IMG/VR virus record: IMGVR_UViG_3300029983_000009
Span: 64,001-128,000 of that record
Direction: 5' to 3' (one strand)
From: a virus
Lineage: Duplodnaviria > Heunggongvirae > Uroviricota > Caudoviricetes
DNA: 64,000 nucleotides
Translations under genes and position numbers: made by a program
The notes under the pieces: model-generated
Seen by the model: only the letters and a program-made list of their open reading frames with translations
Databases searched by the model: none
What the model was told of the DNA's origin: nothing
Shown: positions 12,014 to 31,678 of the stretch, piece after piece
How positions within the stretch are numbered: position 1 is the stretch's first letter
How the letters are laid out: each line of letters begins with the position of its first letter

Positions 12014-12952
12014 ATGAAAGAAGAAAAAAGATTAGTTATGACTTGTGGATTACCTGCTGCAGGTAAATCAGGTATTGTTGAATCTTATGTTGATTATAAT
12101 TACACCTTATTATCAAGAGATATTGAAGGTGGTACATTAATTTCACTTAATAAGAAACTTGAAGCACTGATGATAGATGGTGTTGATATTGTATTAGATG
12201 GTACATATACAACTAAGTTATCTCGTTCTGAAGTTATTGAATTAGCAAAAAAATATGACTACTATATAATTTGCCTTTATTTCACCACAAAGATTGAAGA
12301 TTGTATGTTCAATCAGGTAACAAGAATGATAAGAAAATATGATAGATTATTTACAGAATTAAGTGATTATTCTAAAGTTAATGATCCACATATGTTTCCT
12401 GTAGCTGCACTTTATAAAATGAATAAACATTTTGAAACACCAGAATTATCAGAAGGTATTGATGATATAGAAAAAATAGATTTCAAAAGATATCCATCAG
12501 AGTATAAAAATAAAGCAATCTTCTTTGATTATGACGGCACTTTGAGATTAACGAAAAGTGGAGGACATTATCCAACAGATATTAGTGATATTGAAATAAT
12601 TCCTGGTAGAACAGAAAAACTTTTAGAATTACAGAGTCAAGGTTATATATTACTTGGTGTTTCAAATCAAAGTGGTATAGCAAAAGGATTATTAACTCAT
12701 GAGACTGCAATAGAATGTTTTGAAAAGACAAATGAAATGTTAGGAGTTAATATTGATTATAAATATTGCGGGCACTCTGTTCCTCCAATCACTTGCTATT
12801 GTAGAAAGCCAGGAGTTGGCTTTGGAGTTGAATTCATTGAGAAATATAAACTTGATCCATCACAATGTATAATGGTTGGAGATTTGACAAGTGATAAAAC
12901 ATTCGCTAAACGATGTGGCTTTAAATATGTTGATGCCTCTAATTTTTTCTAA
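12014..12952 (+). CDS. P-loop kinase (AAA_33/PNK-like) fused to HAD-IIIA phosphatase (GmhB/PNKP-like)
   Basis: Walker A GLPAAGKS, IVLDGT, DYDGT, SNQSGIAKG, CGHS...CYCRKP, MVGD..SD. Confidence 0.88.
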   Translation: MKEEKRLVMTCGLPAAGKSGIVESYVDYNYTLLSRDIEGGTLISLNKKLEALMIDGVDIVLDGTYTTKLSRSEVIELAKKYDYYIICLYFTTKIEDCMFNQVTRMIRKYDRLFTELSDYSKVNDPHMFPVAALYKMNKHFETPELSEGIDDIEKIDFKRYPSEYKNKAIFFDYDGTLRLTKSGGHYPTDISDIEIIPGRTEKLLELQSQGYILLGVSNQSGIAKGLLTHETAIECFEKTNEMLGVNIDYKYCGHSVPPITCYCRKPGVGFGVEFIEKYKLDPSQCIMVGDLTSDKTFAKRCGFKYVDASNFF

Positions 12953-12975
12953 TTTTTATTAAAATATATTAAATT

Positions 12976-13006
12976 AAGCCTTGAATATTTTATATTCAAG
13001 GCTTTT
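12976..13006 (+). terminator. intrinsic terminator
   Basis: AAGCCTTGAATA-ttt-TATTCAAGGCTT plus T run. Confidence 0.8.
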
Positions 13007-13010
13007 TATA

Positions 13011-13018
13011 TACCTTTG
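13011..13018 (+). promoter_or_regulatory. Bacteroidota-type -7 element
   Basis: TACCTTTG upstream of ORF 13046. Confidence 0.6.
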
Positions 13019-13045
13019 TATTGTAATTAAAAAATAAACAGCAAT

Positions 13046-13312
13046 ATGAAAGAGCCTAACGATATTATTAATATTCCTACAATTGATAATTATGATATGT
13101 TTGATTCTAATAGAGATAGAGCAGATTATATGAATATGGAGCATTGTCCATGTTGTGGTAAAGCATTAAAAACACCAAAATATTTCATTAATTCAATATA
13201 CGGCGGCGCAATGTATAAAGCTGATGATAAAGAATCATATCCTGATGCATGGGTTATGGGAGTTGGTTCAGAATGTAGAAAAAAGTTTCCAGAAGGATAT
13301 ATTTTTAAATAA
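13046..13312 (+). CDS. hypothetical zinc-binding protein
   Basis: CPCCGKAL and VGSECRKK. Confidence 0.75.
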   Translation: MKEPNDIINIPTIDNYDMFDSNRDRADYMNMEHCPCCGKALKTPKYFINSIYGGAMYKADDKESYPDAWVMGVGSECRKKFPEGYIFK

Positions 13313-13320
13313 TTCATATT

Positions 13321-13563
13321 ATGAAAGAAAAAATTTTTAAATTATTTTTTAATTTTTTATTATTTATCATGTATGGATATATGTTTTCATGTATGATTGG
13401 TGGAATTAAAATTACTCATGATTTATATAATATACATTATTATTCAACTTATAAGTGTATTGAGAATTATGTGGTTTTTGGATTAGGAACATTTTTTACT
13501 TTTTTTGTTCTAATTACAATAATAATAATTTCTTATAATTTATTAAAAAATAAAAAAAATTGA
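13321..13563 (+). CDS. hypothetical membrane protein
   Basis: Two hydrophobic stretches. Confidence 0.65.
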   Translation: MKEKIFKLFFNFLLFIMYGYMFSCMIGGIKITHDLYNIHYYSTYKCIENYVVFGLGTFFTFFVLITIIIISYNLLKNKKN

Positions 13564-13564
13564 A

Positions 13565-13720
13565 ATGAGATTTATAATAGTATTATTAAGATTATTTTCT
13601 TTGTTATTAGGATTTATTGGAATTTTTACTTGCGTTATATTAGTAGGATTCTTACTTATAGCATTGGCTCAGGATATTAATGAATTTTCAGATAAACTAG
13701 AATTTAAATATATTAAATAA
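13565..13720 (+). CDS. small membrane protein (51 aa, not in ORF track)
   Basis: Hand translation MRFIIVLLRLFSLLLGFIGIFTCVILVGFLLIALAQDINEFSDKLEFKYIK*. Confidence 0.55.
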   Translation: MRFIIVLLRLFSLLLGFIGIFTCVILVGFLLIALAQDINEFSDKLEFKYIK

Positions 13721-13730
13721 AAATAAAATT

Positions 13731-14453
13731 ATGCCAAAAATTTATGAAGTAGGTGGAGCGGTCAGAGACCGTATCTTAGGAGTTGATTGTAAGGACATTG
13801 ACTTTACTTTTGTATTGGATGATAAGAATCAATCTGTTGAATCTGGATTCATGGATATGGAGTTATGGCTACGTAAAAATGGTTATACTATTTATAATTC
13901 AACGCCAAGATGTTTTACAATTAAAGCAAAATTTCCAAAGGGTCATAAACATGACGGTTTGACTGCAGACTTTGTAATGGCAAGAAAGGAAATTGGTTAT
14001 TATGAAGGTACAAGACGTCCAATTTTAGAACTTGGTACTCTTGAAGATGATTTAATCAGACGTGATTTCACATTAAATGCGATGGCACTTGATGAAAATG
14101 GTACATTGATTGATTTGTTTGATGGAGTTAAAGACCTTAAAATGGGAATTCTTAGAACACCAAGACCTTGTGAGCTTACATTTGATGAGGATTCCCTAAG
14201 AATCTTAAGATGTGTGAGATTTTGTATTACAAAAGGATTCAGAATGACTGATGAAATTGAAATTGCTATCAAAAATTATGATTATGAATCAAAAATGAAA
14301 GTAGTTTCAAGTGAAAGAATTCAAGATGAACTTACTAAGTGTTTCAAATTTGATACATTGAAAACAATATTAGTATTAAATGAATTTCCTACTTTGAGAG
14401 ATTATGTATTTAATCATACTAAGATGTGGCTGAAACCTTCATTTCAAAAATAA
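13731..14453 (+). CDS. class II tRNA nucleotidyltransferase/poly(A) polymerase (CCA-adding-type head domain, no HD domain)
   Basis: VGGAVRD, DIDF, RRDFTLNAMA, EDSLRILR, VSSERI. Confidence 0.9.
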   Translation: MPKIYEVGGAVRDRILGVDCKDIDFTFVLDDKNQSVESGFMDMELWLRKNGYTIYNSTPRCFTIKAKFPKGHKHDGLTADFVMARKEIGYYEGTRRPILELGTLEDDLIRRDFTLNAMALDENGTLIDLFDGVKDLKMGILRTPRPCELTFDEDSLRILRCVRFCITKGFRMTDEIEIAIKNYDYESKMKVVSSERIQDELTKCFKFDTLKTILVLNEFPTLRDYVFNHTKMWLKPSFQK

Positions 14454-17605: not shown

Positions 17606-17988
17606 ATATTAAATTTTTTAGAGCTTATTATTAAATTTACATCTTCTAAATTTATAATATTAGCATTTTTATTATTTTTTATTAATTCTATATTTTCTTC
17701 TTTTTTTAAATCTACATTAGTTATACTTGATATATTAAACATACCAATTAACTCAGAACTAATAATTTTATATTCATATTCATTACATGGAAATAAATAT
17801 AAGTAAAAAAACTCATCTCCTTTAGTGGTATTATTAAATAGAACATATTCAATGTTATATCTATTTGCTTGTTCAATGTCGTAATATATATCTGATATAT
17901 TATGTCTACCTGATTCATAATATCTTCTGAAATATATAGAAAAATATTTGTTTTTTATAGATTCATAGAATTGATTGAATGTTTTCAT
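17602..17988 (-). CDS. cassette protein, unknown payload
   Basis: MKTFNQFYES...KKFNI. Confidence 0.85.
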   Translation of the reverse strand: MKTFNQFYESIKNKYFSIYFRRYYESGRHNISDIYYDIEQANRYNIEYVLFNNTTKGDEFFYLYLFPCNEYEYKIISSELIGMFNISSITNVDLKKEENIELIKNNKNANIINLEDVNLIISSKKFNI

Positions 17989-18413
17989 ATATTGAATTTA
18001 TTTGTCATATTATTTAACTCCCATTGATAACAAGTAGTTTTTTTCAATTCTTCAAATTTATCTTGAGCAGTTTTTAATGATGATGATAAAAAAACTCTTT
18101 CAAATGTGTCACTGTTAATATTTAAATATTTTATTCCTATATTTATTCTTTCTGAGTTTTTCAAGTCTATTTCATCTATTTCGCATACATATGAAATTAT
18201 ATCAATTTTTAATCTTATTCCATCATCAAATTCTGTTGGCTCCAGAATTCTACACAAAGCTAAATAGTTATTCATTTTACCATATTTCCAATGATAAATA
18301 TTAGATTTGTATATCATATAAAAGCCTGGAATATAATTATTTATCATATCATTGAACTTATTCTTTGACTTCATTTTATCTTTATAATTCTCATAAATTT
18401 TTAAATGTTTCAT
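17985..18413 (-). CDS. cassette protein, unknown payload
   Basis: MKHLKIYE...NKFNI. Confidence 0.85.
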   Translation of the reverse strand: MKHLKIYENYKDKMKSKNKFNDMINNYIPGFYMIYKSNIYHWKYGKMNNYLALCRILEPTEFDDGIRLKIDIISYVCEIDEIDLKNSERINIGIKYLNINSDTFERVFLSSSLKTAQDKFEELKKTTCYQWELNNMTNKFNI

Positions 18414-18754
18414 AAATTATATTTGTTTGTAGCTTCTTTTTTTAATAAATATTCAGAATATTCATTTGGGTATTTTTTCTTGATTATTTCAAGTTGCTTG
18501 TCACTCAACAAATATGTAAAATCATATCCTTTGTTGTTTATAATATTCCAATCTGCTCCTGCTTTAATAAGAATCTCAACAATTGACATAAAATCATGAT
18601 TAGCAGCATAAAATATTGGTGTACGACCTTCCATATCCTGAATATTTATGTCTACATTAAACCTAATTAATTTTTTAACTAATTTTTCATCGTCATTTAT
18701 GATAGCCTTGAATAAATCTATTCCTTTAGATTCAAACGTTTTTATATATTTCAT
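18410..18754 (-). CDS. cassette protein, ankyrin repeats
   Basis: DINIQDMEGRTPIFYAA, GADWNI; NKYNL. Confidence 0.88.
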   Translation of the reverse strand: MKYIKTFESKGIDLFKAIINDDEKLVKKLIRFNVDINIQDMEGRTPIFYAANHDFMSIVEILIKAGADWNIINNKGYDFTYLLSDKQLEIIKKKYPNEYSEYLLKKEATNKYNL

Positions 18755-19155
18755 ATGTTAAATTTATTTGATTCTCTTTTTAAATAAAAATCTTCTTTTG
18801 TTATCTGACTCATTACATCATATATATTTCCTTTTATTTCAAAGTTGTATGTACGAGATTCAAATGTTATTAAATTTAATCCATAAATAGTTTCTAAATA
18901 TTCTTCAATAATATTAAACATCTCATTATATATACTAATGAATAAATCATCTCCTTCTATCTCAGTACTAATTGATAATTTTTTTGATCTTTCAGATTTT
19001 GAACTGTAGTAATAAAAATCATATTCTAAATTTGAACTTGAATGATTTGATTTCATATTATAATCTAATGATGTTATAAAACTATTTAGAAAAATAATGA
19101 ATATCTTATTATCTGATGAAGTTTCAATACTTTCATATGTTTTTATATATCTCAT
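18751..19155 (-). CDS. cassette protein, unknown payload (family with 58995, 61593, 62021)
   Basis: MRYIKTYE...ITKEDFYL..NKFNI. Confidence 0.85.
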   Translation of the reverse strand: MRYIKTYESIETSSDNKIFIIFLNSFITSLDYNMKSNHSSSNLEYDFYYYSSKSERSKKLSISTEIEGDDLFISIYNEMFNIIEEYLETIYGLNLITFESRTYNFEIKGNIYDVMSQITKEDFYLKRESNKFNI

Positions 19156-19159
19156 AATA

Positions 19160-20803
19160 TTACTTGGTATTTAATTTTTCAATAGCTTCATCAACAATAC
19201 TATCTGTTATACCTAATTCATGAGTAGTTTTAACAATATGTTTTTTACTGAACACATCATATAAGTCATGCTTATTATCGTCAATAATTATAAAATTGCT
19301 AACAAATTTGTTGTTCTTCAACCAATCTTTTATATCAGAACCACGTTTTTTTGATTTGTCATTTGGAACAACATCATAAATTTTATATTTAAACCCTGCA
19401 TCTTTCATCATTTTTTCAATCTCACTTAAAGGTTTATCATCTCTATATGAAGATGATAATACAACTTTTGCATCTGTTTTTTCTATTATTTTGTTTAAAT
19501 TGCTCATTGCAGTTTTACTCCATTTTTCTGGATCATTAAAAAATTTATGATAATCAGTATCAGATGTTTTATCATAAGGAATAAGAGGTCCATCAATATC
19601 TTCAAATACAACTTTTATTCCGCCTTCTTTAGTATTATCTTTATCTTTTTCAATAGTTTTTATTATACTGTTAAATGATTCTAATCTTGAATAATTCTCA
19701 TCGTCAGCATCTATTATTATCCAAGGTGATTCTTTTGTATTTGTTTTTTTGAAAATGTCATTTATGTATTTAGTGAACTCATCCCACTTATCTAACGTTT
19801 GCTCATCATTCTTACTAAATTTCCAATATTTCAATGGATTGGATTTTCTTAATTCAAATCTCATTTTTTGAACATCCTGAGATATAGAGAACCATATTTT
19901 TATAAGTATAATATCATCATCAATTAATTTATCCTCAAAGTTATTAACTTCTTTCATGAATTTATTGTATTTATCATCTGTTGAATATTTCATCACTGGT
20001 TCAACGTAACCTCTTGTATACCAAGATCTATCAAAGAAAACAATTTCACCATTTTTTGGTAAAACTTTTTCATATCTTTCAAACCAATTATCACTTTCTT
20101 CTTCTGACGGAATACCAAATGTTTGTACTCTATAATGTTTTGGATCAAGAAACCTAGTAATATTTCTAATTGCAGATCCTTTTCCTGCAGCATCTCTACC
20201 TTCAAATATTATTAATACCTTTTTGTTATTGTATGTAATCCATTCCTGTAATTTTAATAACTCTATTTGATATTTATATTTAGTTTTTTGATATTCATCA
20301 AGAGGAACTTTATTTATTTTTATATCTATCTTATTATAAGGCTCATATGATTTGTCAGTCTCTATTTTGTCATAAAAAAATTCATATGTACTGTCTATAT
20401 ATCGATCTACGTTATCAGCATATGCTTTAAAAACACTATCTACATTCTTTATATTAATATCAAATGAATTGTTAATTGAATATATTTTTAATATATCATT
20501 CGCAAATTTATTTAATCTCATGTGCCTAATTATATCGTTATCAACATTATTTAAAAAATCTTTGAATAAATCCTTAAATTTAATAATTGTTGTTTTATTA
20601 TAATTGTTCAATAGACTTTTCTTATATGATTCTAAATCTTCTTTGATTTGATTTTTATAGAAATCTAAAGTATATTTTTTGTCTATTGATTGTTTTAAAT
20701 TTATAATCAAACTTTTAAAAGAATGTATGAGGTTTTCTAACTCATCTTTACTTCGATGAAAGAAAGCCTCATTTAATTTATTATAATCATCATATCTTAA
20801 CAT
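19160..20803 (-). CDS. ppk2: polyphosphate kinase 2 with N-terminal extension and C-terminal HAD-like domain
   Basis: FEGRDAAGKGS, FDRSWY.R..VEPVM, KIWFSIS, WKFS..D, PWIII.ADD; C-terminal DIDGPL...LSSSYR...IIIDD. Confidence 0.92.
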   Translation of the reverse strand: MLRYDDYNKLNEAFFHRSKDELENLIHSFKSLIINLKQSIDKKYTLDFYKNQIKEDLESYKKSLLNNYNKTTIIKFKDLFKDFLNNVDNDIIRHMRLNKFANDILKIYSINNSFDINIKNVDSVFKAYADNVDRYIDSTYEFFYDKIETDKSYEPYNKIDIKINKVPLDEYQKTKYKYQIELLKLQEWITYNNKKVLIIFEGRDAAGKGSAIRNITRFLDPKHYRVQTFGIPSEEESDNWFERYEKVLPKNGEIVFFDRSWYTRGYVEPVMKYSTDDKYNKFMKEVNNFEDKLIDDDIILIKIWFSISQDVQKMRFELRKSNPLKYWKFSKNDEQTLDKWDEFTKYINDIFKKTNTKESPWIIIDADDENYSRLESFNSIIKTIEKDKDNTKEGGIKVVFEDIDGPLIPYDKTSDTDYHKFFNDPEKWSKTAMSNLNKIIEKTDAKVVLSSSYRDDKPLSEIEKMMKDAGFKYKIYDVVPNDKSKKRGSDIKDWLKNNKFVSNFIIIDDNKHDLYDVFSKKHIVKTTHELGITDSIVDEAIEKLNTK

Positions 20804-20869
20804 ATATAATTGTAGTGTTTTGTTGTTTATATTATATATAAAAAAATAAGATTGTTATTTTATTTATAT

Positions 20870-20901
20870 AAAAAGTCCAAGTAAATTACTTGGACTTTTT
20901 T
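20870..20901. terminator. intrinsic terminator
   Basis: AAAAAGTCCAAGTAA-a-TTACTTGGACTTTTT. Confidence 0.8.
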
Positions 20902-20905
20902 GTTT

Positions 20906-21505
20906 TTATATTTTTATATTTTTTATTCTATAAAAATAAAAATCATGAGGTAGAACAGAGTTAGGAAAATAATATGTTAATGTATCATTTGTGGGAGTAA
21001 TTATTTGTTTGTAAAATCCATTAGGTACATGAGCACCAGATTTAAGTATAATAATTTTACCAGAAAAATCTAAAACTACTTTTACTGTCAATTTTTTATA
21101 AGTTTTAAATAATATAGTTCTTTCATAATTCTCTAAATGTTCCCAAGTTACTCTATTTAATGAATCACGTTGTAACGAACAATTAAGGTATGAAAAAGTT
21201 TCATATAAATGATTTTTTGTATCAGAAAATGTTGCAGCAGGAGCTAAATGTCCTTTATCCCATACGTTATGAACATAATCAGCATTCGTTGATGTGATTA
21301 TACCTGGTACTTCATAAAAATTCATTCCTGCTCTTGATACATTTTTTGATTCATTAGTTATATAGTAAATGACCCAATTAGGCTGTTTATACACTTCATT
21401 ATATGATACTGTATAGATATCATTTTTAACTATAACATTTGTCCTTTGAGAAAAAGATAATATTGATAAAAACAAAAAGACTAATAATATTGATAAGTTT
21501 TTCAT
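20906..21505 (-). CDS. DNA/RNA non-specific endonuclease (NucA/EndA-type) with signal peptide
   Basis: WDKGHLAPA, TFSYLNCSLQ..LNR..WE.LE, VP..FYK; hydrophobic N-terminus from ATG 21505. Confidence 0.9.
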   Translation of the reverse strand: MKNLSILLVFLFLSILSFSQRTNVIVKNDIYTVSYNEVYKQPNWVIYYITNESKNVSRAGMNFYEVPGIITSTNADYVHNVWDKGHLAPAATFSDTKNHLYETFSYLNCSLQRDSLNRVTWEHLENYERTILFKTYKKLTVKVVLDFSGKIIILKSGAHVPNGFYKQIITPTNDTLTYYFPNSVLPHDFYFYRIKNIKI

Positions 21506-21564
21506 GATAATTTTTTTCAAATATATATTAATATATATGGTGTTAAAAAATATAAATATAAATT

Positions 21565-21864
21565 ATGAAATATATAAAAACATTTGAATTCGTTGTTAAA
21601 GATATTGAAATACCTATTGGATATTACGTTATACCTGTTCTTAAAGGTATAAATTATGATATTCAATATAAAACAAAAATAAGTAATAATATTTTTCAAA
21701 TAATAAACAAAAGCAAAACTCAATATAAAATTGATTTTAAAGATTATTATCATGAAGATGGTTTTTGGATTGATAAAAAAGATGTATTTAAATATTCATC
21801 TGTTAAAAAAATATTAGAAGACAAATTGGAATTAATTAAGCAAACAAATAAATTCAATGTATGA
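21565..21864 (+). CDS. cassette protein (array 3), SH3-like
   Basis: MKYIKTFE...IGYYVI...NKFNV. Confidence 0.85.
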   Translation: MKYIKTFEFVVKDIEIPIGYYVIPVLKGINYDIQYKTKISNNIFQIINKSKTQYKIDFKDYYHEDGFWIDKKDVFKYSSVKKILEDKLELIKQTNKFNV

Positions 21865-22238
21865 TAACTAAATTTAAACTATATGAAACAATAAAAAAAT
21901 CGCCAAAAACTAAAAAAATATTAGTTAAAGATTATAAAATAGGAGATTACGTTATTTGTGAAAGTGAATCATTTCCTATGTTAAGTGATTTTACATCATC
22001 TAATGTTGGACAGATAATAGATATTCTAAATATAAGAGAACGTTTTGATAATTATGTTATTCAATATGATTATATTCCAGATAATTTAAAACATTCATTT
22101 CAAATACAATGTCACGATAATGATCCAAATAAAAAATATGAAAATTCAGTAACTGTAACCAGGACAGAAATAAAATTTCTATCTGATAAAAAATCAGATT
22201 TGGAATATTTATCAAATTCAAAAAAATTCAATATATGA
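21861..22238 (+). CDS. cassette protein (array 3), GDYV/SH3-like
   Basis: MITKFKLYE...IGDYVI...KKFNI. Confidence 0.85.
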   Translation: MITKFKLYETIKKSPKTKKILVKDYKIGDYVICESESFPMLSDFTSSNVGQIIDILNIRERFDNYVIQYDYIPDNLKHSFQIQCHDNDPNKKYENSVTVTRTEIKFLSDKKSDLEYLSNSKKFNI

Positions 22239-22582
22239 TAACAAAATTTAAAATATTTGAAATAAAAAATTATACTCCTGAATATTTAAATGATTTAAAA
22301 ATAGGAGATAAAATTATATATGTAGGTCACCAGTCTAACTATTTAAAAGAAGGTGATATATTTATTATAAATTCTATTGTGAAGTATTCAGAAAATAATG
22401 GACATAGATATTATTTAGATGTTGATACAATAGGAAAAGGTGATTTAATTTCAATTAAAACTGAAAATGGATATGTTATTAATGATAAAGATGACGGATC
22501 TGATAAACTTTTTTTTCCAAACAAATTTACTACTCCTGAGATTTATAATATAACTAATGATTCTAAAAAATTCAATTTATAA
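22235..22582 (+). CDS. cassette protein (array 3), SH3-like
   Basis: MITKFKIFE...IGDKII...KKFNL. Confidence 0.85.
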   Translation: MITKFKIFEIKNYTPEYLNDLKIGDKIIYVGHQSNYLKEGDIFIINSIVKYSENNGHRYYLDVDTIGKGDLISIKTENGYVINDKDDGSDKLFFPNKFTTPEIYNITNDSKKFNL

Positions 22583-22583
22583 C

Positions 22584-23123
22584 TCATTTATATAAAATTT
22601 TCTTCATATTATTAGAGTTAACTGATTCTCCATCAAATGCTTCTATTTCCCAAGGTCTTTGATTATAATCAATGTCTGATATATCAATAGATTCATTCAA
22701 CCAATAATAAACTCCTGTTCTACTAATAAATAAAGTTTTATCATAATATTGTTTTAAATGAATCAATTCATGAGATAATATGCGAATATTTTCACTTCTA
22801 TTATAATCACCAATAAATATGTAATATATTCCATTAGAATCAACTATATATGCTTTTAGTTCAATGTCCTCATTATTAATTACTGTTGATTTCAATTCGA
22901 TATTTTTTATTATAACTGTAACGGTATCAATTTTTAGAGATAGTAATCCTGATTCTACTATTGTATCTAAATATGGTTTGTTTGTTAAGTTATATATGTG
23001 ATGATAATTAGTAATTTCAATTTTACTAAATGACTTATCTTTAATAGTTGCAATTTTATAAACTATAAATATTAAAGACAAAACAGCCAAAATTATTAAT
23101 ATTATTTTAATTGTTTTATTCAT
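22584..23123 (-). CDS. membrane-anchored putative zinc metallopeptidase
   Basis: N-terminal TM; HELIH (HExxH) and PWEIEA. Confidence 0.75.
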   Translation of the reverse strand: MNKTIKIILIILAVLSLIFIVYKIATIKDKSFSKIEITNYHHIYNLTNKPYLDTIVESGLLSLKIDTVTVIIKNIELKSTVINNEDIELKAYIVDSNGIYYIFIGDYNRSENIRILSHELIHLKQYYDKTLFISRTGVYYWLNESIDISDIDYNQRPWEIEAFDGESVNSNNMKKILYK

Positions 23124-23647
23124 TTGTGTGTTATTTTTTTTAATGATTCAATTGTTAAATTTATATTACTATTAATCCAACCACATAGCTGATTAGATAT
23201 TTTATTTTCAGTTTCTCTATCCTTTTTTGCCATATTCAACCAAAATGATAATGGCTTTACTATTAAATCATATTTTTTCCCTCCTAACCATAACGAATTT
23301 ATTGTTGCTGAGTATTTATTTGTAGATCTATTTATACCATTTGGATTAACTTCAATATTTTTTATAACATTGAATATTGTATCTGTAGGATCTGATTTTT
23401 TTAATTGAGTTATCATTGCATTATCATCAATAATTTCGTCATTAATTATTCTATTTAGTGAATTTATTGAATCAATTGACTTAGTAACAACTTGTTCTGT
23501 TAATTTTCCTATTGGCAACAATAAATTTTTAAGATTATCTATTATTTTATTTGCTTTTATTCCTGCATTATATCTTGCATTTTCTGGTGTAAATCCATCA
23601 GTTAGTACATTTTCATTAAATCTATCAAAACTTTTTATATTTTTCAT
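23120..23647 (-). CDS. hypothetical protein with CTS-like N-terminus only
   Basis: MKNIKSFDRFNE; TAATATATA upstream. Confidence 0.8.
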   Translation of the reverse strand: MKNIKSFDRFNENVLTDGFTPENARYNAGIKANKIIDNLKNLLLPIGKLTEQVVTKSIDSINSLNRIINDEIIDDNAMITQLKKSDPTDTIFNVIKNIEVNPNGINRSTNKYSATINSLWLGGKKYDLIVKPLSFWLNMAKKDRETENKISNQLCGWINSNINLTIESLKKITHK

Positions 23648-23681
23648 GATACCATATATATTAAAAAAAAGAAATAAAAAT

Positions 23682-24098
23682 ATGATTAAAGTTTATATAG
23701 CTTCACCATATACAAAAGGTGATGTTGCAGTTAATGTAAAAACACAAATGGATACTGCAGATGAATTGATGAATAAAGGATTTGTACCATTTACTCCATT
23801 ATATTCACATTTTCAGCATATGGCTCATCCAAGACCATATGAAGATTGGTTAAAATTGGACTTTGAATGGATTCCAGTGTGTGATTGCATTTTAAGATTA
23901 CCAGGAGATTCAAGTGGAGCAGACAATGAAGTAGAATTTGCTATTACTAATAATATACTAGTGTTCTATTCATTGAATGATTTATGTAAATATTATAATG
24001 GGTTTGAAGATTTAGATGAATCTGAAAAAATTATAAAACATAAAACAAAAAGTGATAGAAATATAGGTCGTCCTTGGAATAGAAATATTCAAATTTGA
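23682..24098 (+). CDS. nucleoside 2-deoxyribosyltransferase-like fold protein (DUF4406/DUF1937-like)
   Basis: VYIASPY, W...D...I..CD..L.LPG.S.GA..E..FA; ATG 23682. Confidence 0.75.
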   Translation: MIKVYIASPYTKGDVAVNVKTQMDTADELMNKGFVPFTPLYSHFQHMAHPRPYEDWLKLDFEWIPVCDCILRLPGDSSGADNEVEFAITNNILVFYSLNDLCKYYNGFEDLDESEKIIKHKTKSDRNIGRPWNRNIQI

Positions 24099-24380
24099 AA
24101 ATATTTTAAAATTTATCTATAAATGTTTGGTAGTTTCAAAAACTTTTTATACTTTTGTACTACAAACAAAACAAAAACATCAAGTAAGAGTACTTGAAAA
24201 TAAAGTTCAAAACTTTAACATTAAATATTTGGTAAAACAAAAAACTTTTTGTAATTTTGCACTACAATATCAAATGAAAAGTGATTGTAAAAAATCATAA
24301 TTTAAAATGATAAAAAAAGTTCAAAACTTTAACATTAAATATTTGGTAAAACAAAAAACTTTTTGTAATTTTGAACTACA

Positions 24381-24628
24381 ATAAAAACAAATCAAATTTC
24401 AGATTGAAAAAAATCTAATGGTATAGAAACCACCTTAAAGCTTGCAAGAGGATGATAGTGCAAATGAACACACTTAGATTAATTAAATTTTGTAATAAAA
24501 AACTCACTATTTTTAAGTAATTTTTTATAGTGAAAAATAAAATACAGAATTTAAAAAGTAAATATAATAAATGAAAATTTATTGTTTCTAATCTGTGAAG
24601 ATAAAAGAACTGAAAATGATTTGATTTT
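24381..24628 (+). ncRNA. candidate structured small RNA, copy I (~250 nt)
   Basis: Starts after promoter 24366; 5' AAATCAAAT/TTTCAG/CAGATT complementary to 3' AATCTG/CTGAAA/ATTTGATTT; holds one pseudoknot module; no ORF. Confidence 0.5.
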
Positions 24629-25079
24629 AAAAAAATCTCTTGTAAAAGTACTTGAGAAAATGTATAAAAAATAACAAAAATATTTGGCAAAACAGAAAAC
24701 TTTTTGTAATTTTGAACTACAATAATTTAAATCAAAAAATCAGATTTAAACAAGAAATATCAGCATTAGTAACTTATCTAATAATATATTTATAAGAAGA
24801 TGTATTAAAAAAGATGAATCTGAAAGTGTGAATGGTGAATTAATGATAAGATTGTAATCTTATACAATAAAAAAACTATCAAAGATAAATATCCGTTGAA
24901 GTAGATATATAAGTTATGTAGAACTTATCTTGTTATAAATGTAAATAGTAACTACACCGTGGAAATACAATATTTGAATTAAATTTGGAATATTATAAAT
25001 CCTAATGTTAGATGATATGTGACTGACTGCTATTACTTTCACTACAAGAACTGACTATTGATTAAATTATAAAAAATGA

Positions 25080-25167
25080 TGAAGATAAGCACACAGGGTG
25101 CAGCACGATTCAAATTGTGCAGAAGGCAAGTGTTACTGACACTGGGTTCAACTCCATCTATCTTCAC
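25080..25167 (+). tRNA. tRNA-Sec-like element (anticodon TCA), atypical
   Basis: 8-bp acceptor TGAAGATA/TATCTTCA, GCAC/GTGC D-arm, GCACG-attcaaat-TGTGC arm (TCA 25110-25112), long variable arm AGTGT/ACACT, GGTTCAACTCC; loop sizes non-canonical, no CCA. Confidence 0.55.
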
Positions 25168-25459
25168 TATGAATATTGATTTCAACACTGAAAAACAAAC
25201 TTCGGTTTTAAGTAAGTTCCACTATTGATATTCATAACCAAAACAAGAGAGTTTTGATTATCTTATAAAATTTGATAATTGTAAAAAAATTAATTTAAAT
25301 CTCTTGAAAAAGAGTAGTTAATTTTAATATGATATTTAAAAAAATTGTTTAATTAAAATTCCTTGAATAAAAAATCAAGTAGGAGTACTTGAAAATAGTT
25401 TGAAACTTTAACATTAAATATTTGGTAAAACAAAAAACTTTTTGTAATTTCACACTATA

Positions 25460-25671
25460 ATAAAAAAGAAAATCACAATTCATATTTAATGGATAATCTA
25501 ATGGTATAAAAACCACCTTGAAGCTTGCAAAAGGAGATAGTGCAAATGAACACTCTTAGATTTATAATAATACATTTCGCAGATTTGTAAAGTTACAAGA
25601 ATAAATATGATTTAAAGTTTATTTTTTCTAATCTGAGAAGATAAAAGAACTTATAAATGATTTTATTTTTT
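25460..25671 (+). ncRNA. candidate structured small RNA, copy II
   Basis: Same module order as copy I (leader, pseudoknot module, TTTTCTAATCTG.GAAGATAAAAGAAC trailer). Confidence 0.45.
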
Positions 25672-25768
25672 AATACTCATTCAAGTAAGAGTACTTGATA
25701 AAAAAAGTTCAAAACTTTAACATTAAATATTTGGTAAAACAAAAAACTTTTTGTAATTTTGAACTACA

Positions 25769-26358
25769 ATAATGAAACAAATCAAATTTCAGATTGAAGC
25801 AATGAAAATATAATGGTACAAAAACCACCTTGAAGCTTGCAAGAGGATGATAGTGCAAATGAACACAACTTATATATTAATTATCTTGCTTATACAATTT
25901 AATATCTAATTAGATAAAAACCACCTTGAAGCTTGCAAAAGGATTAAGTGTAATTGATCATACTTAGATATTAATAATTGAAAAAGTGAAAAATAATCTA
26001 TGATAACCAACTTTATTGATGGTATGAGTAATTATTAATATCATGACAGTAAATGTTGTATAACCAACTAAAAATCTAATGGTACAGAAACCACCTTGAA
26101 GCTTGCAAAAGGAGATAGTGCAAATAAACACACTTAGACATTAATAATTGAAAAAGCAATAAAAATAATCAAAGGCAAAAGCCAACTTGAAGCTTGCAAA
26201 AGTGTATGATTAATATTGCAGAAGTAAATATTGCAGAAGTAATAAAGATTCAAGGATTGATATTACAAAAGTAAATATAATGAACATAATAATGTTTATT
26301 GTTCCACTGAAAAAAGTTCTGTGAAGAACAAAAGGACTGAAATAGATTTGTGTCATTT
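25769..26358 (+). ncRNA. candidate structured RNA, expanded copy III with four pseudoknot modules
   Basis: 5' AATGAAACAAATC..TTTCAG pairs with 3' CTGAAA..GATTTGTGTCATT. Confidence 0.5.
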
Positions 26359-26569
26359 TCAAGTAAAAGTACTTGAAAAACAACAAGAAACAATACATTT
26401 AGATTTATTAGTAAATATAACTATGAAAATGGTTAATTTACAAGTTTAAGAGGTTAGTTCCTTTTATTAGATCTAAATTCTTTTAGTTAAGAAATGATAG
26501 TATAAAAATTTACTATAATCTAAATGTTTGTTTTTTATTTAAAAGCGTTCTTTGTAAAATTGAAAATAT

Positions 26570-27540
26570 TTGGCTGTCTGTAGTCATTAAATAAACTACG
26601 AAAGTAGGATAAAGTGAATATGTAGTTGTTTCTATATATTTGCGACATCAAATGATTTATTATTTAACAGATTATTAGGCTAATAGTTTGACATATAATT
26701 GTTCGTAAATAAACTTACTTCGGTGAGTTTATATAAAACATTCAATTATGTGAATAATAGTTATTAGTTATAAAAATTTGTTAGTAATATTCATTTAGTG
26801 TTCGAGCAGACAATCAGGATATCATTAAACCTTAATTATCGAGGGTAACACTATAGAGAAAGTGGTTTAATGCAAGGGCTATGTGGGTAGTCTAAGTGAG
26901 ATGGGAACATCAATAAGAATAACCTGAAGGATTATTGCAAGAAACACGATTTCCAGTTGTGTAATTGCGTTATCCAATATAAAAGTTGGCTTAAAACCGA
27001 AAGGTAAATAAGATTGTAATCCAATGTACAGGTGGTGCTGTTATTAAGGTTACCCTATCTTTACCAAAGGATATGAGAGTGTCTTAGTTAACTTAAAATA
27101 TGGAGGTAGGGATATCTCAGAGAGTAGTTTAGTATAGCTCCGTTCAAAAGATGGAGAATCTGGTTGTCGAACCACTACTTTCATCATCCACAAAACAAAC
27201 TTTAACTGCAAATTTAATGCAAAATTAAAATAAACAAATAAAGGAAAAGAGTTCGACTGTTGTTGGAGATAGGTGACTACTAGTTATGAGAAGAAATTCG
27301 TTATAGCCGTGAAAGACCCCAAGTCTAACATGATTTTTAAGAAAGTTCTCTAAATCCGCAAGATTTAATCTGGAAGGCATTCTAGATGAGTAATGATTAT
27401 TAAGAGAGTATCTAACAACAAAAGGAGTGGTGAATCTAATTGACCGTCATTGGAGGAGTACCAATTCAAAAGATTGGTGGAAAAGAAGCAGAAAAAATAA
27501 TAGTTTCTAAAGTTCTTCTCTATAATGCTGTATTCTCAAG
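26570..27540 (+). ncRNA. large (~1 kb) structured non-coding RNA, GOLLD/ROOL-class candidate
   Basis: No ORF of 60 aa or more, visibly higher GC, GNRA/UUCG hairpins (26596, 26711, 26996), multi-branch helices, long-range pairings, terminator directly after. Confidence 0.65.
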
Positions 27541-27546
27541 CAATAT

Positions 27547-27589
27547 AAAAAAAATCCTATCTAATTGAAAAATCAGATAGGATTTTTTT
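27547..27589. terminator. bidirectional intrinsic terminator
   Basis: AAAAAAATCCTATCT...AGATAGGATTTTTTT. Confidence 0.85.
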
Positions 27590-27590
27590 G

Positions 27591-27643
27591 TTATAAGCTA
27601 TTTCACTTATAAATACGCATTATAAGCTATTTCACTTATAAAT
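27591..27643. repeat. 24-bp direct repeat
   Basis: TTATAAGCTATTTCACTTATAAAT at 27591-27614 and 27620-27643. Confidence 0.9.
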
Positions 27644-27947
27644 TGAATTTTTTTATATCTGTTTTAAATGTATTATCTTTCATATATTCTTCAACATCAT
27701 CATCAATTACTATATATTCTCTATTTTTTAAGCACAATCTATCATCCACATACTTTCCTTTTTGATCTAAATACACTCCAACATCACCATTACAATAACC
27801 AAATGGATGTGTCAAAGTGCCAGTTAAGTATTCACCTTCATCTTTAAATTTGATTTTAGTGCCTACTGGATATTTAGATTTACCTGCTAATAACATTTCT
27901 CCATTAAATGTAGTAAAATGATGCTCATCGAATTTTTGAATTTTCAT
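27636..27947 (-). CDS. cassette protein, SH3-like
   Basis: MKIQKFDE...YPVGTKI...KKFNL. Confidence 0.85.
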   Translation of the reverse strand: MKIQKFDEHHFTTFNGEMLLAGKSKYPVGTKIKFKDEGEYLTGTLTHPFGYCNGDVGVYLDQKGKYVDDRLCLKNREYIVIDDDVEEYMKDNTFKTDIKKFNL

Positions 27948-27949
27948 AA

Positions 27950-28330
27950 TTATAAATTAAATTTTTCTATGTTTTTTTTCATTAAATACTCTTCATATTT
28001 TTCTGAATATTTTTTTCTTATTTTTTCTATTACTTTATCTCCATATAAATGTTCCTCTATCAATTGAATAAAATCTGTTTTACTATCATCTTTTACATAC
28101 CAATCAGGATTATATTTTAATAATAGATATAAAATACTCCAATATCCTTTATACGAAGCATATAATAATGCATTATTTTTTTCTCCAACTACTGTACTAT
28201 TAATATCAAATCCAGAATCTAATAATCTTTTAACTTTAGAATACTGATTATTATATACAGCATCAATTAATTCATTTTCAATAGTATAATATTTTTTCTT
28301 TTTATATTCAAAAGTTTTTATGTATTTCAT
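27950..28330 (-). CDS. cassette protein, ankyrin repeats
   Basis: Start corrected to MKYIKTFE at 28330; GFDINS, NALLYAS; EKFNL. Confidence 0.85.
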   Translation of the reverse strand: MKYIKTFEYKKKKYYTIENELIDAVYNNQYSKVKRLLDSGFDINSTVVGEKNNALLYASYKGYWSILYLLLKYNPDWYVKDDSKTDFIQLIEEHLYGDKVIEKIRKKYSEKYEEYLMKKNIEKFNL

Positions 28331-28331
28331 A

Positions 28332-28778
28332 TTATAAGTTGAATTTTTTAGACATCGAAACATCAGGCATATTTATTTCTTGCCATTTTTTGTATTCATA
28401 CAAATTATTATAGGGTAATTTATTTCCAGTGCATACTAATAGTGTTAGTGACTCTGGAAGAATTGGTAACTCAGTTAAATTATTATCACAACAATTCAAA
28501 ATTTCTAATGAATAAGGTAATACTGGCAATTCAGATAAATTATTTGAATAACAAAATATTTTTTTTATTGTATATGGTAAAGTAGGTAGTTCACGCAAAT
28601 CATTACCAAAACATGACAATATTTCTAATGAACTTGGTAATTTTGGTAACCTGACCAAGTGATTATGATAACAATATAATTCTTTTGCTGTATCTGGTAA
28701 CTCTGGTAGTAAGCTAAGTCCTTTATCATTATACTTTAGTACTTCTACTATACTTTCAAACCGTTTTAAGTATTTCAT
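28332..28778 (-). CDS. cassette protein, short bacterial-type leucine-rich repeats
   Basis: LP.LP..L..L.C..N.L repeated about five times; KKFNL. Confidence 0.9.
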   Translation of the reverse strand: MKYLKRFESIVEVLKYNDKGLSLLPELPDTAKELYCYHNHLVRLPKLPSSLEILSCFGNDLRELPTLPYTIKKIFCYSNNLSELPVLPYSLEILNCCDNNLTELPILPESLTLLVCTGNKLPYNNLYEYKKWQEINMPDVSMSKKFNL

Positions 28779-29248
28779 AAGTTAAATTTATTTGTCATTT
28801 TAAACAATTCGAAATTTGTATCATTTATTTTATTTATTATTTCAGGTAATTTATCTAATGGAATCCAATATCTATTATCATTCTTTACCGATATATCTTC
28901 ACATGAACTATTGCGTATAATATCAGATAAAAAATTTTGAATATTTTCCATGAAATTCATTTTTGGATGATAACAATAAAGAATTGCATTTCTACTAAGA
29001 TTATAATGTAACTCTACAACTTCTGCTGCGTCATCTAAATCATGTGGATCAACAAAAATACTTATTATATCGTAATACTTTTTATTATTAATTCCATATA
29101 TATTTGAATAAACATCCCAATCATTATCTATAGCTTTTTCTATAGTTTTAGTTAATATTTCACTAAAATTAATAACCTCAATAGGTAATTTTTTTCTTTT
29201 TTTAAATATGTCAGTAAAATTATTTTCAAATGATTTTATATATTTCAT
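28775..29248 (-). CDS. cassette protein, unknown payload
   Basis: MKYIKSFE...NKFNL. Confidence 0.85.
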   Translation of the reverse strand: MKYIKSFENNFTDIFKKRKKLPIEVINFSEILTKTIEKAIDNDWDVYSNIYGINNKKYYDIISIFVDPHDLDDAAEVVELHYNLSRNAILYCYHPKMNFMENIQNFLSDIIRNSSCEDISVKNDNRYWIPLDKLPEIINKINDTNFELFKMTNKFNL

Positions 29249-29646
29249 AAGTTAAATTTATTTACATTTTTTAGTGAAGGCAGGCAATCTAATAATTCTT
29301 GTAAATCATCCGAATCTTTCATTATATAACTAAGACTAGTTTCTGATAAATTATAATACATTCCTTGTTTTTTATTATTTTTTAATTTATCTGTATTTAA
29401 ATTATATGTATATAATTTCTTTGTTACTATAAAAAGATTTGTGTGATCATAGCAAGCTTCTATTCTATCTTTTTCTAATATGAAATATATACCAGATTCA
29501 ATAAATTTCTTCACATCATGAAATAATATATATTTCTTCATGACCTTATATGCTTTTTTTATATCGTTATCAGCCTTTTTTTGAATATTTCTAACATCTC
29601 TTATATAATCGTCTCTTTCACTTTCAAATTTCTTTATGTATTTCAT
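29245..29646 (-). CDS. cassette protein, unknown payload
   Basis: MKYIKKFE...NKFNL. Confidence 0.85.
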   Translation of the reverse strand: MKYIKKFESERDDYIRDVRNIQKKADNDIKKAYKVMKKYILFHDVKKFIESGIYFILEKDRIEACYDHTNLFIVTKKLYTYNLNTDKLKNNKKQGMYYNLSETSLSYIMKDSDDLQELLDCLPSLKNVNKFNL

Positions 29647-30023
29647 ATGTTAAATTTTTTTGAAGAACGTGTCACAGGATTAAGAATATCTAAATCTTCA
29701 TCTACATTTTTTTGTTGATTGTCATATATTTTTATCAATTCTTTCCATAATTTATTAGAAAACTCATGATTTGATATAGGATGTCCAGTTATAATTCCTT
29801 TATATTCACCTGATATTATTCTCTGTGATTTATTATATTTACCAACAGAGTAAATGCCTATATGTGAAAAAGAATATATATAATCATCTATTTCTATTGT
29901 ATATCCTCCGTTATGTGAAATTTTAATATTTTCTTCTTTTACAATATCAAAAATTCTTGAAACTATTGAATCTCCTTCTTTTGATTTATTAAACCAAGTA
30001 TTCATTTCTTTTATATATTTCAT
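29643..30023 (-). CDS. cassette protein, unknown payload
   Basis: MKYIKE...KKFNI. Confidence 0.85.
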   Translation of the reverse strand: MKYIKEMNTWFNKSKEGDSIVSRIFDIVKEENIKISHNGGYTIEIDDYIYSFSHIGIYSVGKYNKSQRIISGEYKGIITGHPISNHEFSNKLWKELIKIYDNQQKNVDEDLDILNPVTRSSKKFNI

Positions 30024-30586
30024 ATGTTAAATTTATTTGCATTTTTAATCATTAAAAAATTACTATATTTATCAGGATATTTTTCTATGATTTCTTTTTT
30101 ATACAAAGGATATAAATATTCAATAAATGTATTACCTAAATCATCAGATACATTCCAATCAGCGTCATTTTCAATCAGCATTTTAATTATTTTAAATGCC
30201 TTTTTATCTTTATAGTTAGAACACATAATTAATACTGTTTCACCATCATTATTTCTGATATCTAAATCAGCGCCTGATTCAATTAAATATTGTGTCATTT
30301 CTTCTTTTTTATTTCTTCCAGCTAGTATTAGTGGTGTATTTCCAAATGTATCAGTATAATTAATATCTGCTCCTGATTCAATTAAAAATTTAAATATTGT
30401 AAATAAACTAAATCTTATAGAATATATCAAAGGAGTATCGCCATTTTTATCTTTAATATTAAGATTAATATTAGGTATCTCAGATACTAATTCTTTTATT
30501 TTTGGTAAATCTGAGTGATAAAGATATCTAAATATGTCTTTTTCATCATAAAAATTTATCAATTCAAATTGTTTTAAATATTTCAT
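30020..30586 (-). CDS. cassette protein, ankyrin repeats
   Basis: NGDTPLIYS, GADINYTDTFGNTPLILA, GADLDIRN; NKFNI. Confidence 0.9.
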   Translation of the reverse strand: MKYLKQFELINFYDEKDIFRYLYHSDLPKIKELVSEIPNINLNIKDKNGDTPLIYSIRFSLFTIFKFLIESGADINYTDTFGNTPLILAGRNKKEEMTQYLIESGADLDIRNNDGETVLIMCSNYKDKKAFKIIKMLIENDADWNVSDDLGNTFIEYLYPLYKKEIIEKYPDKYSNFLMIKNANKFNI

Positions 30587-30906
30587 AAATTAAATTTTTT
30601 TGTTGATAATTTTAGTTCTAAATCTTCAATTGTTCTAGCATAATCTACTACATCATCAGTACTCAATTGTATATGATATACATAATATTTACCTTGCTTA
30701 TTAAAAAATTCTACAAGTTCATCTGGTATGTATTGAAATCCAAATTTAAACCATATTGGACTATATCCATTTGTTTCAATAATTTTACAAAAATTATTTC
30801 TAAAAAAACTATTTAATTCTGAATTAAGTGTTTGAAAATTTAACTTAGCATAATCTCCTTTTTTTATATCTCTATTTGTTTTTTCAAATTTTTTTATATA
30901 TTTCAT
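30583..30906 (-). CDS. cassette protein, GDYV/SH3-like
   Basis: MKYIKKFE...KGDYA...KKFNL. Confidence 0.85.
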   Translation of the reverse strand: MKYIKKFEKTNRDIKKGDYAKLNFQTLNSELNSFFRNNFCKIIETNGYSPIWFKFGFQYIPDELVEFFNKQGKYYVYHIQLSTDDVVDYARTIEDLELKLSTKKFNL

Positions 30907-31337
30907 AAATTAAATTTATTTGCATTTTTATTTAAATTAAGTTCTTTTACTATTTCTGGATATTTTTTATCAAACCATTTTTTTAATTTTTCATCAATCA
31001 TAAAATCATAAAATGTTTTACCTTCAAACTTAAAATTATAATCAATTCCGTTATCTAACAATAATTCAATCATCTTCTTTTGTTCATATAAATCAACATC
31101 TTCTATTATAACCTTAATTAATATATTTTGTCCATCATAAATATCATTTATTTTATCTAGATATTTTGGTAATAAATATTCAAATCTTTTAAGATTTCCA
31201 ATATGTACAGATTGAAAAAGTTTACTAAATCTATGATCATTTTCCAATTCGTTTTCTAAATATTCATCCCACATATTCACATCAGAAGATTTAAATATGT
31301 TAGTAAATCTATTTTCAAATTTTTTGATATATTTCAT
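30903..31337 (-). CDS. cassette protein, degenerate ankyrin-like
   Basis: LLDNGIDYN..GKTFYDF..KYP; NKFNL. Confidence 0.8.
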   Translation of the reverse strand: MKYIKKFENRFTNIFKSSDVNMWDEYLENELENDHRFSKLFQSVHIGNLKRFEYLLPKYLDKINDIYDGQNILIKVIIEDVDLYEQKKMIELLLDNGIDYNFKFEGKTFYDFMIDEKLKKWFDKKYPEIVKELNLNKNANKFNL

Positions 31338-31678
31338 ATGTTATATTTTAATGCATCTTTTTTTCTATTAAAAACTTCTATCTCACTTGAGTTTAGTTTT
31401 CTTATTATTTCATCTGATTGAACTCCATATGAATTATTTATTTCTTTATTATAATTATAAAATATGACATTATATAGAAATTGACCATTATTCAATTCAA
31501 CTGTAATTTCATTTATTAATGCATATTTATCAAATGGCGTAGGATCACCATTTTCATCTACATCTACGTCACCACTCTCATTATTATTATATCTAATTTT
31601 ATCTAAATCTAATAAAACATAATCACCTTTCTTATAATCACTATTTGATAAATCTTCAAAGCATTTCAAGTATTTCAT
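31334..31678 (-). CDS. cassette protein, GDYV/SH3-like (array head)
   Basis: MKYLKCFE...KGDYVL...LKYNI; paralog of 60854. Confidence 0.85.
   Translation of the reverse strand: MKYLKCFEDLSNSDYKKGDYVLLDLDKIRYNNNESGDVDVDENGDPTPFDKYALINEITVELNNGQFLYNVIFYNYNKEINNSYGVQSDEIIRKLNSSEIEVFNRKKDALKYNI

What the first reader, a model, noticed from the sequence alone, without database searches (positions are those of the whole stretch)
24416..26225. Six pseudoknot-like repeats with compensatory changes: candidate type III antitoxin mimics or protein decoys
Seen: core CCTT-gaagc-TTGCA-a-AAGG-N6-7-TGCAA has interleaved stems (CCTT/AAGG, TTGCA/TGCAA), i.e. H-type pseudoknot topology, flanked by A-rich tracts. 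Variants preserve pairing: GAGG (U-G) at 24433 and 25828, TGTAA (G-U) at 25949, and a double change ACTT/AAGT at 26185/26200. Established: ToxI/CptI/TenpI antitoxins are tandem ~35-50-nt pseudoknots cut in A-rich linkers, and phage phiTE escapes ToxIN with pseudo-ToxI repeats. Inference: phage-encoded RNA anti-defence decoys.
Basis: partly seen in the sequence, partly recalled or inferred. Interest (0 to 1): 0.76.

Follow-up and report, generated by a model that had tools for sequence, protein, structure and literature searches.

The report
Modular phage RNAs with repeated arms
A huge bacterial virus carries six copies of an uncatalogued 66-base folded RNA domain, built one to four times into three predicted non-coding RNAs beside the cage-forming GOLLD RNA; it may soak up a host protein, but it does not look like the antitoxin mimic first proposed.

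Summary
The six repeats are real and occur only here in the contig. Two sister genotypes bring the set to 20 distinct copies. The unit is not a free H-type pseudoknot. It is a 66-68 nt branched domain: a closing stem P1, hairpin P2, hairpin P3 with a near-invariant 11-nt loop, and usually hairpin P4. P1-P3 show true compensatory changes.

The units sit as arms (1, 1 and 4-6) inside three paralogous predicted RNAs. Each has a Bacteroidota-type promoter, paired 5'/3' ends, a covarying GNRA hairpin and a terminal hairpin, upstream of GOLLD in a peat megaphage.

Type III antitoxin mimicry is not supported. The ends are paired rather than free, and the period is 83-96 nt against 32-54 nt in 22 real ToxI arrays. 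No homolog was found in cellular genomes, and no ToxN in 401 Bacteroidota genomes.

Best guess: a multi-site protein decoy (0.4). Main rival: self-assembly through palindromic kissing loops (0.2). No expression data could be obtained. The scan had already found this family on sister genomes.

The parts
24413..24479 (+). Repeat copy 1 (four-stem domain P1-P4), the single intact arm of RNA-A
25496..25561 (+). Repeat copy 2, the single arm of RNA-C
25808..25875 (+). Repeat copy 3, first arm of RNA-D; P1 carries a C-G to A-U double change
25904..25969 (+).
26074..26139 (+). Repeat copy 5
26166..26212 (+). Repeat copy 6, short three-stem form (P1-P3); lacks P4 and the pseudoknot partner, as do the last copies in both sister genotypes
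24342..24373 (+). Bacteroidota-type promoter (-33 TTTG, -7 TAnnTTTG) of RNA-A
   Evidence: consensus from PMC7366714; activity not shown
25421..25452 (+). Promoter copy of RNA-C (-7 box ends TTCA here, canonical in sister genotypes)
25730..25761 (+). Promoter copy of RNA-D
24126..24259 (+). Two further promoter copies (24126, 24228) upstream of RNA-A
24380..24656 (+). Predicted RNA-A (~280 nt): 5'/3' closing stem, one arm, one decayed arm (recognisable in a sister genotype), GNRA hairpin, terminal hairpin
   Evidence: ends inferred
25459..25698 (+). Predicted RNA-C (~240 nt): weaker closing stem, one arm, GNRA hairpin, terminal hairpin
   Evidence: ends inferred
25768..26376 (+). Predicted RNA-D (~610 nt): closing stem (-17.7 kcal/mol), four arms (6 and 4 in sister genotypes), GNRA hairpin, terminal hairpin
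   Evidence: ends inferred
24586..24612 (+). GNRA hairpin module of RNA-A (paralogs at 25626-25652 and 26302-26336); loops GUGA/GAGA/GAAA, three covarying pairs
24634..24655 (+). Terminal hairpin/palindrome (GTA-N4-TAC core; copies at 24181, 25376, 25682, 26360), followed by an A run rather than a U run
27120..27542 (+). GOLLD RNA 3' domain (context; Rfam RF02032, 274.8 bits)

Best explanation
The repeats are a folded RNA domain used as a modular arm in three paralogous non-coding RNAs of a Bacteroidota-infecting megaphage. Host RNA polymerase transcribes them from near-consensus promoters (inferred). Each RNA closes on itself by pairing its first ~25 nt with its 3' end and presents 1, 1 or 4-6 arms. 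Each arm displays the near-invariant loop RAAGCUUGCRA on a stem whose sequence changes while pairing is kept (sequence evidence shown). The most likely function is a multi-site decoy that titrates a host RNA-binding protein, such as a defence sensor, nuclease or regulator, with copy number tuning the dose (inferred; partner unknown). A short loop-loop contact between the P3 loop and the P4 loop is possible but is not needed by every arm.
For: Shown: 20 distinct copies in three genotypes. P1, P2 and P3 have changes on both sides; 91% of cells pair against 30-44% for slid controls. The loop differs in 2% of positions, against 6-10% for P3 strands, 11-14% for the other loops and 32-36% for flanks. 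GNRA loops swap among GUGA/GAGA/GAAA over covarying stems, on the + strand only. The closing stems begin within about 2 nt of the predicted start; for RNA-A and RNA-D only 0.2% of island segments pair as well. Arm number in RNA-D varies 4/6/4. Promoters match the Bacteroidota consensus. The island has no credible ORF. Precedent for phage RNA decoys: pseudo-ToxI (PMC3475682) and Racrs (PMC10651486).
Against: No binding partner and no host RNA that it mimics were found: Rfam, GTDB pattern scan, model search of 151 Bacteroidota genomes with only 30 candidates scored each, one rRNA locus. The three genotypes are close kin (86% column identity in the neighbouring RNA), so the double changes reflect roughly eight events by my hand count, and some conservation may be recent duplication or gene conversion. 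Folding z-scores do not favour the + strand. An invariant loop fits RNA-RNA pairing as well as protein binding.
Confidence: 0.4

Rival explanations
1. RNA-only self-assembly. The P3 loop contains two overlapping 6-nt palindromes (AAGCUU, UUGCAA), so arms on different molecules kiss. The 4-6-arm RNA would cross-link into a network, cage or condensate, with the one-arm RNAs as caps, possibly together with GOLLD.
For: AAGCUU is invariant in 20/20 copies, and the one variant of the second palindrome still self-pairs through wobbles. In OLE and GOLLD, symmetric intermolecular kissing loops switch between GGCC, GAUC and AGCU palindromes (PMC12286853). The island lies directly upstream of GOLLD. Synthetic branched RNAs with kissing loops condense (PMC11567899, PMC11289419; abstracts only).
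Against: The duplexes are weak (-4 to -7 kcal/mol). No palindrome-preserving change was seen. The loop could instead fold as a G(CUUG)C tetraloop (my own knowledge) or pair with P4. About 110 other GOLLD loci lack such arrays, so GOLLD does not need them.
Confidence: 0.2
2. Type III antitoxin mimic: the arms are cut out at A-rich sites, fold as H-type pseudoknots and neutralise a ToxN/CptN/TenpN-like toxin.
For: H-type geometry is feasible, and the second stem can pair fully in 16 of 17 full-length copies. The copy number varies. GAAAAA-like tracts lie between arms. One real ToxI array gave a weak local alignment (p 0.005-0.3 depending on scoring).
Against: The flanks form a covarying closing stem, whereas antitoxins need free tails. 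The second stem has no double change and is absent from the terminal copies. The period is 83-96 nt against 32-54 nt in 22 ToxI arrays; none scores with the model and none of the viral ones has a Bacteroidota promoter. The weak alignment was one of 12 comparisons and maps onto different structural roles. ToxN was found in 0/401, TenpN in 0/401 and CptN in 0/301 Bacteroidota genomes over cut-off, against 5/151 for ToxN in the control phylum. Bacteroidota abiF RNAs are single hairpins with no match.
Confidence: 0.07
3. tRNA-sized decoy substrates: the long RNAs are processed into ~66-nt cloverleaves that distract tRNA-cutting or tRNA-binding host proteins, occupying the place where other GOLLD phages keep a tRNA.
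For: Cloverleaf topology and size. Eleven other GOLLD loci have tRNA-Met about 850-910 nt upstream of the search motif. The window encodes a Pnkp-like kinase-phosphatase and a CCA/polyA-type nucleotidyltransferase.
Against: No T-loop or D-loop consensus, no 7-nt anticodon loop, no CCA end, and ARAGORN and Rfam are silent. P1 continues into longer helices instead of ending as an acceptor stem. The terminal copies have only three stems.
Confidence: 0.12
4. Base-pairing small RNAs whose invariant loop is a seed for host transcripts.
For: An invariant exposed loop on a covarying stem is also typical of seed regions.
Against: No complementary target in the phage contig, and the host is unknown. Four to six identical seeds in one RNA are unusual, and a self-complementary seed would tend to pair with itself.
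Confidence: 0.08
5. DNA-level element (origin iterons, recombination or protein-binding sites) or a neutral duplication by-product.
For: Palindromic core; repeated promoter boxes could serve as polymerase sinks or a transcription-primed origin; no expression was shown.
Against: G-U-preserving changes, GNRA loop exchange and long-range end pairing aligned with promoters point to single-stranded RNA. No clear skew switch at the island.
Confidence: 0.1

Closest known systems
Type III antitoxins ToxI/CptI/TenpI and phage phiTE pseudo-ToxI (PMC3475682, PMC5086642, PMC13682666)
   Same: Phage-encoded, repeated, structured RNA with variable copy number; an H-type pairing can be drawn in most copies.
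   Different: Unit 66-68 nt and period 83-96 nt; ends paired; extra hairpins; no compensatory support for the pseudoknot stem; no matching host antitoxin, whereas pseudo-ToxI is mostly identical to ToxI.
GOLLD RNA (Rfam RF02032; PMC12286853) and its tRNA islands
   Same: Same island and strand; GNRA loops and palindromic AGCU-type loops are contacts used in such assemblies.
   Different: The repeats are not part of the GOLLD model, have their own promoters, and are absent from about 110 other GOLLD loci.
CsrB/RsmZ-type multi-site protein sponges (from my own knowledge)
   Same: One RNA presenting several copies of a conserved loop; paralogs with different valency.
   Different: No invariant GGA motif; each site is a three- or four-way junction rather than a simple hairpin; phage-encoded; partner unknown.
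RNA anti-CRISPRs, Racrs (PMC10651486)
   Same: Phage non-coding RNAs acting as decoys.
   Different: Racrs mimic CRISPR repeats; no CRISPR-repeat family in Rfam matches here.
AbiF RNA antitoxin (Rfam RF03085; bioRxiv 10.1101/2025.04.15.648962)
   Same: An RNA antitoxin class that does occur in Bacteroidota (2 of 151 genomes) and can be repeated in one transcript.
   Different: A 33-37 nt single hairpin; no Rfam or model match in either direction.

Membership tests
Type III antitoxin (ToxI/CptI/TenpI) or mimic | Central H-type pseudoknot | tested here: inconclusive
   Second stem pairs fully in 16/17 full copies but has no double change, overlaps hairpin P4 and is absent in 3 terminal copies. 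P4 also has no true double change.
Type III antitoxin (ToxI/CptI/TenpI) or mimic | Single-stranded 5' and 3' tails that bind the toxin | tested here: not met
   Flanks form P1 (C-G/A-U/G-C at one pair) and longer helices.
Type III antitoxin (ToxI/CptI/TenpI) or mimic | Head-to-tail tandem repeats of about 32-60 nt | tested here: not met
   Period 83-96 nt where tandem; two copies solitary; real arrays 32-54 nt.
Type III antitoxin (ToxI/CptI/TenpI) or mimic | Sequence likeness to a host antitoxin upstream of a toxin gene | tested here: not met
   Model R1 finds nothing in 41 ToxN loci and 2 abiF loci; no cellular homolog. The host itself is unknown.
Type III antitoxin (ToxI/CptI/TenpI) or mimic | Cognate toxin present in the host group | tested here: inconclusive
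   Not found in 301-401 sampled Bacteroidota genomes; positive control only for ToxN; a divergent family cannot be excluded.
Type III antitoxin (ToxI/CptI/TenpI) or mimic | Cleavage by and neutralisation of a toxin | not testable with these tools
   Needs a bench assay.
tRNA or tRNA-like RNA | Acceptor stem with 3' NCCA, D- and T-loop consensus, 7-nt anticodon loop | tested here: not met
   ARAGORN and Rfam negative; loops are 6, 11 and 8 nt.
GOLLD RNA (RF02032) | Match to the family model | tested here: not met
   The match is 27120-27542 only.
AbiF RNA antitoxin (RF03085) | Match to the abiF hairpin motif | tested here: not met
   No hit at E up to 10; host examples differ.
Multi-site protein sponge (CsrB-like mode) | Several copies of one conserved exposed motif in a non-coding transcript | tested here: met
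   4-6 arms with a near-invariant loop in RNA-D; transcript predicted only.
Multi-site protein sponge (CsrB-like mode) | Specific binding and titration of a protein | not testable with these tools
   No partner identified.
Reverse-transcriptase- or Ro60-linked RNA systems | Adjacent or phage-encoded RT or TROVE protein | tested here: inconclusive
   None in 4-5 genome fragments of 24-46% completeness; none adjacent.

The most novel reading that the evidence does not exclude
RNA-D is a natural multi-arm RNA whose self-complementary loops cross-link molecules into a protein-free network, cage or condensate. The one-arm paralogs would set its size, and it would work beside the GOLLD cage during infection. 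This would be a natural counterpart of engineered RNA nanostars.
Probability: 0.15. Interest if true: 0.85.

Novelty: new variant of a known kind. Interest (0 to 1): 0.52.

Why it matters
Phage RNA decoys known so far copy a recognisable host RNA (ToxI, CRISPR repeats). This family copies nothing catalogued, yet it is kept in several paralogs with tunable valency and strong host-type promoters. If it is a sponge, its partner would reveal an RNA-binding defence or regulatory protein in Bacteroidota. If it self-assembles, it would extend the GOLLD/ROOL story to modular multivalent RNAs. Both are cheap to test in vitro, because the unit is 66 nt. Its narrow range (three close genotypes) and the lack of expression data limit the present weight.

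Tried and rejected
Rfam at E up to 10 and at gathering score: only GOLLD. ARAGORN: nothing in the island.

Pattern scans of viral and metagenome contigs returned only the two sister genotypes plus chance singletons, one of which was a capsid coding sequence. The GTDB scan gave 63 singletons, close to my estimate of about 50 by chance; the two best model scores lie inside coding genes. INPHARED and PLSDB gave no significant match.

Loci reached through the upstream DUF4406-like gene and about 110 other GOLLD loci have no homolog. RT and TROVE were not found in the genome fragments.

A local likeness to one 54-nt ToxI array was followed up and rejected. Remembered resemblances to SAM-I, SAM-II, ZTP and c-di-GMP riboswitches and to the Cas9 tracrRNA were dropped because Rfam gave no hit; they were not tested further.

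The three 'both sides changed' cells for P4 come from mis-aligned terminal copies and were discounted.

Full report
Setting. The window is bases 64001-128000 of a 168-kb viral contig that CheckV rates 24% complete, which implies a genome of roughly 700 kb (the size is my inference). It is about 23% G+C. The repeats lie in a stretch from 24100 to 27600 with no credible ORF, which ends in a GOLLD RNA at 27120-27542. Six near-identical boxes in this stretch match the Bacteroidota housekeeping promoter, TTTG at -33 and TAnnTTTG at -7 (consensus from PMC7366714). This points to a Bacteroidota host by inference; the host is not identified.

Observation. Six copies exist, with 0.03 expected by chance, and none elsewhere in the contig. 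However, only five copies carry the TGCAA partner, and the spacings (1083, 312, 96, 170, 91) show that this is not one tandem array. The flanks are 52% A against 44% for the island.

Relatives. Scans of IMG/VR and metagenome contigs found two sister genotypes, with eight and six copies. That the samples are peat rests on my reading of the sample numbers and on earlier scan notes. Together they give 20 distinct copies (alignment A1). A ninth, decayed copy scores 36.5 bits in one sister. No other lineage was found. GTDB returned only chance singletons. 151 Bacteroidota genomes gave no model hit, cultured phages and plasmids gave none, and about 110 other GOLLD loci have no such array, although 11 have tRNA-Met just upstream.

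Structure of the unit. The full unit is 66-68 nt: closing stem P1, hairpin P2, hairpin P3 with the loop RAAGCUUGCRA, a 5-7 nt joint, and hairpin P4. On A1 this model pairs 91% of cells, against 30-44% when slid. P1 has C-G, A-U and G-C at one pair, P2 has G-C to A-U, and P3 has double changes at two of four pairs. RNAalifold recovers P3 only. It shares two bases with P4 and is lost in one full copy and in all three terminal copies, which keep P1-P3 and the intact loop. P4 has no true double change either, so cloverleaf against pseudoknot is not settled for this corner. A 3-bp loop-loop contact is compatible with all 17 full copies. What is settled is that the loop is conserved even without its supposed partner (2% variation) and that the unit's ends are paired. 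The copies are close kin, so the double changes stand for about eight events by hand count.

The larger RNAs. Three promoters (24342, 25421, 25730) each lead into a homologous leader. Each run ends in a homologous 3' module: a GNRA hairpin and a terminal hairpin. The GNRA loop switches among GUGA, GAGA and GAAA over stems with three covarying pairs, which is an RNA signature on the + strand. Leader and 3' module pair with each other from about the predicted start (-14.3, -8.5 and -17.7 kcal/mol). For RNA-A and RNA-D, 0.2% of island segments do as well; for RNA-C, 6% do. The same layout holds in both sisters. The result is three predicted RNAs of about 280, 240 and 610 nt carrying 1, 1 and 4 arms (6 and 4 in the sisters). 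An earlier scan note (e1-5436682) suggested this layout, and I checked it here. No U-tailed terminator follows these RNAs, so their 3' ends may arise by processing.

Test of the type III idea. Type III antitoxins are H-type pseudoknots with two single-stranded tails, 34-36 nt for ToxI (PMC5086642; PMC13682666), and pseudo-ToxI is mostly identical to ToxI (PMC3475682). I collected 22 real ToxI arrays. Their periods are 32-54 nt, apart from one 73-nt doublet, and the model scores none. One array gave a weak local alignment, but it was one of 12 comparisons, it depends on gap penalties, and it pairs elements with different roles. ToxN was over cut-off in 0 of 401 Bacteroidota genomes against 5 of 151 in a control phylum. 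TenpN (0/401) and CptN (0/301) were also not found, but without a positive control. AbiF RNAs occur in Bacteroidota but are single hairpins unlike this unit. Membership fails on tails, period and likeness. The broader idea of a decoy survives.

Mechanism. Shown by sequence: a conserved exposed loop on covarying stems, repeated within promoter-led, end-paired RNAs of variable valency. Inferred: early transcription by host polymerase and titration of a host RNA-binding protein (0.4). The chief rival is intermolecular kissing through the palindromic loop (0.2). AGCU-type symmetric kissing loops occur in OLE and GOLLD assemblies (PMC12286853), but the predicted duplexes are weak and no palindrome-preserving change was seen. 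Processed tRNA-sized decoys (0.12), a DNA-level role (0.1), antisense seeds (0.08) and type III mimicry (0.07) follow.

Verdict. A real, uncatalogued modular phage RNA family, already noted by this scan on sister genomes. Interest 0.52; new variant of a known kind (phage non-coding RNA islands and RNA decoys).

Noticed in passing
window 24683-25068: A fourth promoter-led RNA (~350 nt) with the same kind of 5'/3' closing stem (-11.2 kcal/mol) but no repeat arm; conserved in all three genotypes; no Rfam match.
   Followed up: partly
window 25080-25167: tRNA-like cloverleaf with a long variable arm and a T-loop, not called by ARAGORN. The anticodon-position loop differs among the three genotypes, so it is not a conserved UCA selenocysteine tRNA; it could be a synthetase or SmpB decoy.
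   Followed up: partly
window 24181, 24634, 25376, 25682, 26360: The terminal hairpin is also a DNA palindrome about 25 nt before the next promoter's upstream element; its right half is invariant. It may double as a regulator-binding site.
   Followed up: no
window 26520-27120: Conserved non-coding sequence upstream of the Rfam GOLLD match, probably the variable 5' half of GOLLD.
   Followed up: no
G000:C1:31316-31387 (outside the window): ARAGORN calls a tRNA with anticodon CTA (amber-suppressor type), although the window's genes read normally in code 11.
   Followed up: no
window 12014-14450 and 19160-20803: Pnkp-like kinase-phosphatase, CCA/polyA-type nucleotidyltransferase and a PPK2 fused to an RNA-repair-type HAD domain: an RNA end-healing kit near the RNA island.
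   Followed up: partly
window 17985-31678: Long arrays of short genes that begin MKYIKxFE-like and end KFNL/KFNI-like, converging on the RNA island.
   Followed up: no
L513:1305-1440, L522 and L520: ToxI arrays with an extra hairpin inserted in the pseudoknot loop (54-nt period in L513 and L522), longer than the described 34-36 nt ToxI units.
   Followed up: partly
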